Origin: Escherichia coli
Lineage (GTDB): Bacteria > Pseudomonadota > Gammaproteobacteria > Enterobacterales > Enterobacteriaceae
Direction: 5' to 3' (one strand)
Assembly: GCF_030384885.1 (NCBI RefSeq)
Contig: NZ_CP128613.1
DNA length: 64,000 bases
The notes beneath the pieces are model-generated. The model was not told where the DNA came from and did not search any database. It was given only the letters and a program-made list of their open reading frames with translations. Both the position numbers and the translations under genes were made by a program. This document shows positions 58,211-59,140 of the stretch, piece by piece (positions within the stretch are counted from its first letter, which is position 1; each line of letters begins with the position of its first letter).

Positions 58211-59140
58211 CTACTTTTTCGTATAACTCTCTTCGCATTTAGCCAAAAACAGCAGATTAGTAGCGGTTAAATGAAGGGTATAACTCGCTAAATACTCAGG
58301 AACTTTTGTTATTTCTGCCCCTTGTCCATGTCCACCTTCTTTATTTCGAATGGTTGGAATACCACTCTCAAGTAGAATTCTTATTGAAGAAAATTGATTC
58401 TGGAGGTATTCAGGTACTAAATTATTTGCCAAACAACTGTTAATTAGTTTTTTAGCTGTGTCAGTATCATTAAATTGCCAAGAATGTTTTTTATGTATGG
58501 CTTTCATTAGACTTTCAAAAGATTTGAGGCAATCATTTAAACATTCTTTATATCGCTGATGTCTATAATGCTCATGGGCGGATAAAAACTCATCGTTTGC
58601 TCCGTTATAACTCTTGTTCTTACCAAGAATCTGAAGCGTAGGCTTTACAACATCAGAATGAATGAATTGTGAGTCAACTTTAACCAACTCTCCTGACTCA
58701 AATTGATATCCAAGACCTGCTTCTTTAAACCTGATATTAAGTTCTTCAATAGCATCATCAGGACTTTGCTTTACTAACCCTCTGAATTTCCACTCATTTG
58801 ATCTTATATACCCGTCTATCAGTTTGAAACATATCTCAATGATATCCAAGCATTTTTCATGATCTCTCTCAGCTAGGAAATAGTCAAAAATTGCCCCGAA
58901 ATTCGATTCAGGATACTGTTTGAGAGAGAATACACCATATTCCTTACACAGCGTTTTATGAACGAGTCTGTAAAGCTTACTTGCTTCCGTTTCATAGTCA
59001 CTATCTTCACCGATAGTATCTCTTACAATATGAACAACCTGAACACGAAATGCATTTGGTATATTCGTGTATTGGTAAACATCAGCTACTTCACCTCTTA
59101 ATTTTTTTTGTCTTTTTGAAAATAATTCGAATATAGCCAA
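58211..59140 (-). CDS. Prophage cargo protein, 309 aa: N-terminal Abi-associated-like domain + C-terminal HEPN-like domain (Rx5H motif RNKEGGH); TTG start
   Basis: Long ORF with AGGA RBS 7 nt before TTG; C-terminal helical region carrying IRNKEGGHGQ matches the HEPN Rx4-6H signature; not a known filamentous-phage core gene. Confidence 0.55.
   Translation of the reverse strand: MAIFELFSKRQKKLRGEVADVYQYTNIPNAFRVQVVHIVRDTIGEDSDYETEASKLYRLVHKTLCKEYGVFSLKQYPESNFGAIFDYFLAERDHEKCLDIIEICFKLIDGYIRSNEWKFRGLVKQSPDDAIEELNIRFKEAGLGYQFESGELVKVDSQFIHSDVVKPTLQILGKNKSYNGANDEFLSAHEHYRHQRYKECLNDCLKSFESLMKAIHKKHSWQFNDTDTAKKLINSCLANNLVPEYLQNQFSSIRILLESGIPTIRNKEGGHGQGAEITKVPEYLASYTLHLTATNLLFLAKCEESYTKK

What the first reader, a model, noticed from the sequence alone, without database searches (positions are those of the whole stretch)
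58211..59140. HEPN-like cargo gene uses a TTG start and has an Abi-associated-like N-terminal region
The only in-frame initiation codon with a Shine-Dalgarno (AGGA, 7-nt spacer) is TTG; there is no upstream ATG before the in-frame stop. Weak initiation is typical of tightly dosed toxic effectors. The N-terminal about 180 residues are lysine- and glutamate-rich helical sequence resembling the N-terminal modules fused to HEPN in AbiJ-like abortive-infection proteins (recalled, not verified).
Basis: partly seen in the sequence, partly recalled or inferred. Interest (0 to 1): 0.6.

Follow-up and report, generated by a model that had tools for sequence, protein, structure and literature searches.

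The report
AbiJ-type HEPN gene in filamentous prophage
The ORF is a real, intact 309-residue gene of an already catalogued family (AbiJ-NTD4 sensor-like domain fused to a HEPN ribonuclease-type domain, probably an anti-phage suicide or defence protein). It is carried as a swappable one-gene cargo at the end of a filamentous prophage inserted at the E. coli dif site, and it starts with a TTG codon that its enterobacterial relatives have kept.

Summary
Window 58211..59140 (-) is a 309-codon ORF whose only usable start is TTG, preceded by GAGGA and a 7-nt spacer, with no upstream ATG, GTG or TTG before the in-frame stop.

The interpretation also holds:
- Pfam gives AbiJ_NTD4 (residues 5-168, E=8.6e-27) plus DUF7014 (170-305, E=1.8e-77).
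- NCBIfam gives STM4504/CBY_0614 (456 bits, cutoff 150).
- The HEPN motif R265-N-x4-H271 is at least 90% conserved in 138 diverse homologues.
- This architecture was described in 2013, with CBY_0614 as the exemplar.

The gene is true cargo. A 1015-bp cassette (58209-59223) sits between the terminator/attL (hybrid dif, 58113-58140) and the lysogeny-side genes of a CUS-1/Ypf-like inovirus prophage next to hipA. Other E. coli carry two unrelated genes in the same slot.

TTG is not a family trait: 80 species loci gave ATG 66, GTG 6, TTG 0. It is retained throughout one enterobacterial clade despite saturated synonymous sites.

Function (anti-phage HEPN RNase, low dosage) is inferred, not shown. 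This is an ordinary member of a known kind with a modestly interesting context.

The parts
58211..59140 (-). CDS of the 309-aa AbiJ-NTD4 + HEPN protein (STM4504/CBY_0614 family; identical to RefSeq WP_000963948.1), stop codon included
59138..59140 (-). TTG start codon
   Evidence: N-termini of homologues align here; TTG kept in enterobacterial relatives
59148..59152 (-). Shine-Dalgarno GAGGA, 7 nt before the TTG
   Evidence: conserved GAGGA/GAGGGG/AAGGGG/AGGAGAGG in relatives whose upstream sequence has otherwise diverged
58637..59128 (-). AbiJ_NTD4 domain (residues 5-168), alpha+beta, presumed sensor/regulatory module
58226..58633 (-). HEPN domain (residues 170-305; Pfam DUF7014 / Abi_C)
58328..58348 (-). 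HEPN catalytic-type motif R265-N-K-E-G-G-H271 (Rx4-6H)
   Evidence: R265, N266 and H271 are each at least 90% conserved in 138 sequences of 38-75% identity
58209..59223 (.). One-gene cargo cassette (35% GC, against 41% for the prophage backbone and 49% for the chromosome). It is replaced by two unrelated genes in E. coli UM146-type prophages
   Evidence: breakpoints; GC
58141..58183 (-). Strong hairpin followed by UUUUC, about 30 nt after the stop codon; a likely terminator of the lysogeny-side transcript. It belongs to the conserved phage end, not to the cassette
   Evidence: fold -40.3 kcal/mol, z=-6.4; conserved in L002, L084, L087, L090
58113..58140 (+). attL: hybrid dif site GGTGCGCATAA-TGTCAACGCG-TTATGTT (XerC arm, phage central region, XerD-like arm)
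   Evidence: canonical dif at the other prophage end in L002
59224..59646 (-). Context: conserved 140-aa multi-pass membrane protein of the prophage (phrog_4174, unknown function), immediately upstream in the same orientation
59735..59917 (-). Context: 60-aa protein (phrog_2503) at the position of the rstR-like repressor; first gene of the leftward (lysogeny-side) gene set
   Evidence: position analogous to YPO2273/rstR (PMC4266046)
59951..59978 (-). Context: only sigma-70-like promoter match upstream on this strand (ATGATA-16-TATACT); candidate promoter for the 60-aa / 140-aa / cargo gene string
   Evidence: consensus match only; fewer matches found than in shuffles, so weak evidence

Best explanation
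The gene encodes a single-chain abortive-infection/defence-type protein of the AbiJ-NTD4 + AbiJ-HEPN (STM4504/CBY_0614) family.

Proposed mechanism (inferred): the C-terminal HEPN domain is a metal-independent RNase that uses R265/N266/H271. The N-terminal NTD4 domain keeps it inactive until it senses a component of an infecting phage. RNA cleavage then stops growth of the infected cell and of the invader.

The gene is a one-gene cargo cassette at the attL-proximal end of a CUS-1/Ypf-like filamentous prophage integrated at dif beside hipA. It lies downstream of the repressor-side genes and upstream of a strong terminator, so it should be expressed in the lysogen. The strong SD with a TTG start should keep the amount of protein low.

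Shown: the ORF and its start, the domain identity, the HEPN fold and motif, cassette-type cargo status, and retention of TTG across the enterobacterial clade.

Inferred: RNase activity, the trigger, the defence phenotype, co-transcription, and the low-dosage rationale.
For: Identity:
- Pfam AbiJ_NTD4 E=8.6e-27 and DUF7014 E=1.8e-77.
- NCBIfam NF046078 at 456 bits against a cutoff of 150.
- The precomputed annotation lists Abi_C + AbiJ_NTD4 for all 120 listed homologues.
- PADLOC candidate PDC-S32, E=4.5e-10.

Fold and motif:
- AF2 pLDDT 91.
- RNx4H at least 90% conserved.

Literature:
- The architecture and the sensor-plus-suicidal-RNase model were proposed by Anantharaman 2013.
- Lactococcal AbiJ gives phage resistance, with escape mutations in an ssDNA-annealing protein (PMC13064643).

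Mobile-element contexts typical of defence genes:
- The cargo slot of two different dif-integrating inoviruses.
- Integrase islets next to proA.
- Vibrio cholerae superintegron cassettes.
- Filamentous prophages are reported to carry defence genes in a variable locus (PMC11630473).

Cassette and expression:
- Cassette breakpoints and low GC.
- Terminator hairpin.
- TTG retained in 7 of 8 sampled members of the enterobacterial clade (GTG in the eighth), while 4-fold sites are saturated at 0.33-0.39 identity.
Against: - I found no experimental test of any AbiJ-NTD4 member in the searched library.
- The PADLOC hit is weak and partial, and is to a candidate rather than a validated system.
- The Pfam HEPN (PF05168) and older Abi_C (PF14355.11) models match only at E=0.62.
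- The NTD has no informative structural relative, so 'sensor' is conjecture.
- No promoter was detected in the 83-nt upstream spacer, and the upstream promoter match is weak.
- Most family members use ATG (66 of 80), so low dosage is not a general requirement.
- Some HEPN domains are non-catalytic.
Confidence: 0.6

Rival explanations
1. Prophage-serving module rather than host defence. The HEPN protein acts as a self-contained toxin (with the NTD as a cis-antitoxin) that stabilises the easily lost, Xer-excisable prophage. Alternatively it tunes the phage's own RNA or virion production, as accessory TA or kinase modules do in Pf phages.
For: The gene sits in the lysogeny-side gene string next to the att site. 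Ypf/CUS-type phages are described as unstable (PMC4266046). Inovirus accessory TA and KKP modules control lysogeny (titles and abstracts). The gene travels with the hairpin and attP end across two inovirus backbones.
Against: The same family is common outside prophages: integron cassettes, integrase islets and chromosomes of many phyla. It also persists where the prophage has decayed (L087). Most CUS-1-like prophages do without it: 17 genomes have the gene, against 150 with backbone matches.
Confidence: 0.15
2. Exclusion of competing ssDNA or filamentous elements. The protein targets rival inoviruses or other IMEX elements that compete for dif, rather than tailed lytic phages.
For: Recurrent carriage by dif-integrating inoviruses with different immunity regions. 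Lactococcal AbiJ escape mutants map to ssDNA-annealing proteins.
Against: There is no direct evidence. The wide distribution in taxa and contexts without inoviruses argues for a broader target range.
Confidence: 0.1
3. Catalytically inert or non-defence HEPN protein (a nucleotide- or protein-binding adaptor, or a virulence-associated factor), with the TTG start a neutral inherited feature.
For: Many HEPN domains are non-catalytic (table in PMC3710099). STM4504 appeared once in a computational list of candidate secreted effectors (PMC3240867). The TTG has a single origin in one clade.
Against: The RNx4H motif and surrounding residues are nearly invariant, as expected for an active site. There is no secretion signal or effector context. 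The C-terminal domain is about 70% identical across distant Gammaproteobacteria, which indicates strong functional constraint.
Confidence: 0.08

Closest known systems
STM4504/CBY_0614 family (NCBIfam NF046078): AbiJ-NTD4 fused to AbiJ-type HEPN, defined computationally by Anantharaman et al. 2013 (PMC3710099)
   Same: Full-length match (456 bits; residues 23-300 cover model positions 1-280 of 281). Same two-domain architecture, same RNx4H motif, same length of about 305-312 aa.
   Different: Nothing structural. This copy is distinguished only by its carrier (the cargo slot of a CUS-1-like inovirus at dif) and by the TTG start shared with its enterobacterial clade.
Lactococcus lactis AbiJ (Abi-859), single-gene abortive infection protein
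   Same: The HEPN C-terminal domain is of the Abi_C/AbiJ type, and the protein is a single polypeptide with an N-terminal accessory domain. AbiJ is the expected functional analogue: phage resistance, with escape through ssDNA-annealing protein mutations.
   Different: AbiJ proteins have different N-terminal domains, so NTD4 is not the lactococcal one. The older Abi_C model matches only at E=0.62. The AbiJ mechanism itself is unknown.
HEPN-MNT toxin-antitoxin pairs (e.g. SO_3166/SO_3165, PDB 5yep; 7ae2)
   Different: There is no adjacent MNT nucleotidyltransferase or other antitoxin gene. The neighbours are a membrane protein and a 60-aa protein with no Pfam or PADLOC match. Regulation is presumably in cis, by the NTD.
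HepS of Salmonella Gifsy-1 prophage (PDB 9oik) and AbiV (PDB 9bj5): prophage- or plasmid-borne HEPN defence RNases
   Different: Different families and partners: the PDB title describes HepS bound to the lambda tail tip, and AbiV has an RNA antitoxin. No trigger is known here.
Cargo slot of CUS-1 (E. coli K1) / Ypf-phi (Yersinia pestis) filamentous prophages, and variable accessory loci of Vibrio filamentous prophages
   Same: Same phage type and integration at dif. The attL-adjacent segment is the one already known to differ between Ypf (YPO2271/2272) and CUS-1 (orf1/orf1a) (PMC4266046). Defence genes in the variable loci of filamentous prophages have been reported (PMC11630473).
   Different: Here the slot holds one AbiJ-NTD4/HEPN gene instead of two genes of unknown function. 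I found no description of this variant in the searched literature.

Membership tests
HEPN superfamily | Four-helix up-down HEPN bundle fold | tested here: met
HEPN superfamily | Conserved Rx4-6H motif (often RN...H) | tested here: met
   R265-N-K-E-G-G-H271. R265, N266 and H271 are each at least 90% conserved in 138 homologues and invariant in 22 close ones.
HEPN superfamily | RNase activity dependent on the motif | not testable with these tools
   Needs biochemistry or in vivo RNA analysis.
AbiJ-type HEPN (Pfam Abi_C PF14355 / DUF7014 PF22809) | Significant profile match of the C-terminal domain | tested here: met
   DUF7014 E=1.8e-77, covering model positions 1-136 of 137. The precomputed annotation lists PF14355.13 for all homologues and at the genomic loci. 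The older PF14355.11 model matches only at E=0.62.
AbiJ-NTD4 module | Significant profile match of the N-terminal ~165 residues; alpha+beta | tested here: met
   PF18863 E=8.6e-27, residues 5-168 on model positions 1-150 of 152. Helices plus a beta-hairpin in both AF2 models.
STM4504/CBY_0614 family (NCBIfam NF046078) | Whole-protein score above the curated cutoff | tested here: met
   456.1 bits against a cutoff of 150. RefSeq names the identical protein accordingly.
Abortive infection / anti-phage defence system | Reduces phage propagation when present | not testable with these tools
   Support is indirect only: the weak PADLOC candidate hit PDC-S32 (E=4.5e-10), mobile-element contexts and the literature model.
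HEPN-MNT toxin-antitoxin system | Adjacent MNT nucleotidyltransferase antitoxin gene | tested here: not met
   The neighbours are a 140-aa membrane protein and a 60-aa protein with no Pfam or PADLOC match. There is no second gene inside the cassette.
Cargo of a dif-integrating (Xer-dependent) filamentous prophage of the CUS-1/Ypf type | Inovirus core genes plus dif-like att sites flanking the element | tested here: met
   Rep (phrog_702), G5P-like DNA-binding protein, major coat, attachment protein and minor coat in the window. Zot and secretin in the full copies L002/L003. Hybrid dif at 58113-58140 and canonical dif at the far end in L002. The right end lies outside the window.
Cargo of a dif-integrating (Xer-dependent) filamentous prophage of the CUS-1/Ypf type | Gene is accessory (present/absent or replaced among otherwise similar phages) | tested here: met
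   17 of 5426 E. coli genomes have the gene, against 150 with backbone matches. UM146 has two other genes between identical flanks.

The most novel reading that the evidence does not exclude
The AbiJ-NTD4/HEPN cassette is a functional anti-phage (or anti-rival-inovirus) immunity gene that filamentous, dif-integrating prophages of Enterobacteria repeatedly exchange together with their attP/terminator end. In this reading the enterobacterial clade has been selected to keep a weak TTG/GTG start, because higher dosage of the auto-inhibited RNase is toxic. This would make the gene the first experimentally tractable AbiJ-NTD4 member. It would also offer a concrete explanation for the fitness benefit attributed to CUS-1/Ypf-type prophages.
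Probability: 0.2. Interest if true: 0.5.

Novelty: new member of a known kind. Interest (0 to 1): 0.27.

Why it matters
If the inferred function is right, a very small (about 8 kb) filamentous prophage pays its way by giving its E. coli or Salmonella host a single-gene abortive-infection RNase. That fits the emerging picture that the accessory slots of non-tailed prophages are reservoirs of defence genes. The locus is compact and comes with natural controls: the same phage with other cargo, and a remnant copy without the phage. That makes it a convenient system for finding out what the uncharacterised AbiJ-NTD4 domain senses. The TTG start retained across the clade gives a simple handle (a TTG-to-ATG swap) for testing dosage toxicity. 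None of this is conceptually new. The family, its predicted mechanism and defence cargo in filamentous prophages are all already described.

Tried and rejected
- Megablast of the prophage part (58000-64000) against the phage GenBank collection gave no match, so no named phage record could be used.
- A sequence search of the PDB with the family profile gave only chance-level hits (E 0.25-0.27). Fold comparison was needed.
- Pfam and PADLOC on the two upstream neighbours gave nothing. They give no sign of being a partner or antitoxin, and they belong to the conserved phage backbone, not to the cassette.
- The promoter scan found no sigma-70 match in the 83-nt spacer upstream of the gene. An independent cassette promoter is therefore not supported, but it is not excluded.
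- A search for canonical dif with up to 3 mismatches found none in the window. Only the hybrid attL is present, because the prophage runs past the window end.
- I considered that the TTG might be a mis-called start with the true start internal. I rejected this because the N-terminus is conserved from residue 1 in hundreds of homologues, and the next ATG is codon 212.
- I considered TTG as a family-wide hallmark of toxicity. I rejected this: 66 of 80 species loci use ATG and none uses TTG.
- Literature searches for STM4504, DUF7014, AbiJ_NTD4 and PDC-S32 found no experimental work on this subfamily.

Full report
**Observation**

The minus strand of window 58211..59140 carries a 309-codon ORF ending in TAG. 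Codon 1 is TTG (59140-59138). It is preceded by GAGGA (59152-59148) and the 7-nt spacer TTATAAA. The in-frame stop upstream is TAA at 59167-59165, and none of the eight codons in between is ATG, GTG or TTG.

Inside the ORF the next canonical starts are TTG98, TTG152 and ATG212. RefSeq annotates the same 930-nt CDS in other E. coli, and the window's protein is identical to WP_000963948.1.

Comparative evidence fixes the start:
- Close and distant homologues are 300-315 aa long and align from residue 1 (consensus M-x-I-x-D/E-L-F-S-K-R-Q-K).
- The Pfam AbiJ_NTD4 model begins at residue 5.

The description 'K/E-rich helical' is only approximate. The N-terminal region is 8.3% K and 9.5% E, and it is alpha+beta with a beta-hairpin at 145-154.

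**What the protein is**

Profile searches give:
- Pfam AbiJ_NTD4 (residues 5-168, E=8.6e-27) and DUF7014 (170-305, E=1.8e-77). The generic HEPN and the older Abi_C models match only at E=0.62.
- NCBIfam 'STM4504/CBY_0614 family protein', 456 bits against a cutoff of 150.
- PHROG 20794 (unknown function), matched end to end.
- PADLOC, only a weak partial hit to the candidate PDC-S32 (E=4.5e-10).
- The large protein collection's precomputed annotation (a newer Pfam) lists Abi_C + AbiJ_NTD4 for every homologue.

No solved structure is detectable by sequence.

- Then AbiA (10.0), HEPN toxins of HEPN-MNT pairs (9.1, 8.7), LsoA/RnlA, Csm6, the Gifsy-1 prophage HepS (7.8) and AbiV (7.0).

Foldseek agrees. 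The HEPN signature is present as R265-N-K-E-G-G-H271, and R265, N266 and H271 are each at least 90% conserved across sequences of 38-75% identity.

This exact architecture was defined by Anantharaman et al. 2013. Their exemplar for 'AbiJ-NTD4 fused to AbiJ HEPN' is CBY_0614, which gives the NCBIfam family its name. They proposed that the NTD senses a viral component and restrains a suicidal HEPN RNase (PMC3710099).

**Where the gene sits**

The gene lies 175 bp downstream of hipA, inside a filamentous (inovirus) prophage integrated at dif. Window 58113-58140 is a hybrid dif site (GGTGCGCATAA / TGTCAACGCG / TTATGTT). Full copies in other strains end at a canonical dif, or at another hybrid site when the prophage is in tandem.

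To the right of the gene are:
- a 140-aa membrane protein and a 60-aa protein at the repressor position, both on the minus strand;
- then, divergently, Rep, a G5P-like DNA-binding protein, small coat proteins, the major coat protein, a pIII-like attachment protein and a minor coat protein;
- Zot and secretin in the complete copies.

This is the CUS-1/Ypf-phi phage type. A review states that the attL-adjacent segment is the part that differs between Ypf (YPO2271/2272) and CUS-1 (orf1/orf1a), with all of these genes of unknown function (PMC4266046).

Comparison with E. coli UM146 defines the cassette precisely. The two sequences are identical from the att site through a hairpin up to 58208, and again from 59224, which is the stop of the membrane-protein gene. 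Between these points the window has this single gene, and UM146 has two unrelated genes.

The cassette (58209-59223) is 35% GC, against 41% for the prophage backbone and 49% for the chromosome.

Only 17 of 5426 complete E. coli genomes have the gene, while 150 have matches to the backbone. The same cargo occurs with two different immunity regions: the 60-aa gene here and in strain Res13, and a 148-aa HTH in NGF1/NC101 and in Salmonella.

**Expression signals**

No sigma-70 consensus match lies in the 83-nt spacer upstream. The only match on this strand is upstream of the 60-aa gene (59978-59951). The scan found fewer sites than in shuffled sequence, so this is weak evidence.

About 30 nt after the stop is a very stable hairpin (-40.3 kcal/mol, z=-6.4) followed by UUUUC. 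It is conserved with the att site in all related phage ends.

I infer, but have not shown, that the gene is the last cistron of the lysogeny-side transcript.

**The TTG start**

At the homologous position in 80 loci from different species, spanning many phyla, the codon is ATG in 66, GTG in 6 and TTG in none. The rest are one- or two-residue alignment offsets. TTG is therefore not a hallmark of the family.

Every sampled member of the enterobacterial clade uses TTG behind a good SD, although their upstream sequences differ:
- the 96% and 93% relatives (Salmonella, E. coli);
- the 81% Salmonella copy, and the 74% copy from an integrase islet;
- the 72% copy from a second integrase islet, and the 69% Enterobacter copy.

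The Yersinia ruckeri copy has GTG at that position, 6 nt after GAGGA. Vibrio cholerae and an unrelated E. coli copy use ATG.

A neighbour-joining tree groups all the TTG/GTG users into one clade, so the change happened once. Four-fold degenerate sites between the window gene and the deeper clade members are only 0.33-0.39 identical, which is effectively saturated.

Keeping a non-ATG start over that much divergence is consistent with selection for weak initiation in these hosts. It is not proof, and it says nothing directly about toxicity. From general knowledge, TTG is a rare start in E. coli, used by a few percent of genes, and initiates markedly less efficiently than ATG.

**Wider contexts of the family**

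The family has about 2700 clusters at 50% identity, nearly all full-length. It occurs in Proteobacteria, Bacteroidota, Cyanobacteria, Firmicutes, Acidobacteria, Planctomycetes and others.

Close relatives sit in mobile contexts:
- An 81% homologue occupies the same terminal position, with the same hairpin and att, in a different Salmonella inovirus.
- A 93% homologue in E. coli survives with the hairpin and only the XerD-arm half of the att site, beside an ISNCY transposase. This is a decayed prophage end.
- Homologues of 72-74% lie next to a tyrosine integrase downstream of proA.
- A 75% homologue is a cassette of the V. cholerae superintegron.

Such contexts are typical of defence genes. Variable loci of Vibrio filamentous prophages have been reported to be enriched in defence systems (PMC11630473).

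**Mechanism and rivals**

The best-supported reading (confidence about 0.6) is a single-chain abortive-infection/defence protein. In this reading the NTD4 domain acts as a sensor and cis-inhibitor, and the HEPN domain is an RNase using R265/N266/H271. The protein would be expressed at low level in the lysogen and would protect the lysogen, and hence the prophage, from other phages.

- Shown: the gene, its start, the domains, the fold, the motif, cargo status and retention of TTG across the clade.
- Inferred: catalysis, the trigger, the phenotype, the transcription unit and the dosage rationale.

Lactococcal AbiJ does confer phage resistance, and its escape mutants map to an ssDNA-annealing protein, but its mechanism is unknown (PMC13064643). 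I found no experimental work on any NTD4 member.

The rivals are:
- a prophage-maintenance or self-regulation role (0.15);
- exclusion of rival filamentous elements (0.10);
- an inert or non-defence HEPN with a neutral TTG (0.08).

It is not a HEPN-MNT toxin-antitoxin pair, because no partner gene is present in the cassette or next to it.

**Verdict**

However, the gene is an ordinary member of a family that has been computationally described since 2013 and is already named in RefSeq, in a kind of location (the accessory slot of a filamentous prophage) that is already known to hold such genes.

The modest additions here are:
- the exact cassette boundaries;
- the recurrence of the gene at the att-proximal end of two inovirus lineages;
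- the retention of TTG across the enterobacterial clade.

Novelty: new member of a known kind. Interest: about 0.27.

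Noticed in passing
window 58113-58140: Hybrid dif site (attL) GGTGCGCATAATGTCAACGCGTTATGTT immediately after hipA. No canonical dif is present in the window, so the prophage continues past position 64000.
   Followed up: yes
L002 4218-4972 (E. coli UM146), equivalent to window 58209-59223: The same slot between identical flanks holds two other genes: a 159-aa hypothetical and a 91-aa 'ECs_2282 family putative zinc-binding protein'. The latter has a weak PADLOC hit to candidate PDC-S64 (E=4.3e-07). The slot may be a small hotspot for defence-like cargo.
   Followed up: partly
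window 59735-59917 (-), compared with L001 10749-11195 and L084 6949-7395: Immunity-region swap. This window (and strain Res13) has a 60-aa protein (phrog_2503, no Pfam match) at the repressor position. NGF1/NC101 and Salmonella prophages carrying the identical or 96% cargo gene have a 148-aa HTH_3 protein there.
   Followed up: partly
L001 9214-10143 and 16948-17877; L003 5071-6000 and 13646-14575; L084: The prophage, and with it the cargo gene, is present as tandem copies in several complete genomes, as is known for CUS-1/CTX-type elements.
   Followed up: no
L087 8001-8933 and downstream to about 9010: A 93%-identical copy in another E. coli keeps the terminator hairpin and only the XerD-arm half of the att site. 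It lies beside an ISNCY transposase about 1.8 kb from the canonical dif. This is a decayed prophage end in which the HEPN gene, with its TTG start, survived.
   Followed up: partly
L090 8001-8924 (Salmonella enterica): An 81% homologue occupies the same att-proximal position of a different inovirus (371-aa Rep, Phage_DNA_bind G5P, 177-aa HTH). It has the same hairpin and att module, suggesting that gene, hairpin and attP are exchanged together between phage backbones.
   Followed up: partly
L096 and L097 6001-6930 (Vibrio cholerae): A 75% homologue with an ATG start is a cassette of the chromosomal superintegron. L097 begins next to the integron integrase beside rplT/infC, and L096 lies among ParE/Phd and acetyltransferase cassettes.
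   Followed up: no
window 59151-59165 (-): An out-of-frame mini-ORF, ATG GCA TAT CTT TGA, ends inside the Shine-Dalgarno sequence of the gene. A similar ATG CAA TAT TTT TGA is present in L087. It could be chance or a small translational control element.
   Followed up: no
window 61817-63211 (+): The pIII-like attachment protein contains a (GGGES)x5[13 protein letters not shown] linker repeat. The annotated gene length differs between strains (1251 nt in L003, 1293 nt in L002).
   Followed up: no
L092, L094, L095 (Klebsiella/Enterobacteriaceae): Homologues of 72-74% identity (TTG start) sit next to a tyrosine integrase immediately downstream of proBA, sometimes with a resolvase. This is a small integrative islet whose main or only cargo is this gene.
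   Followed up: no
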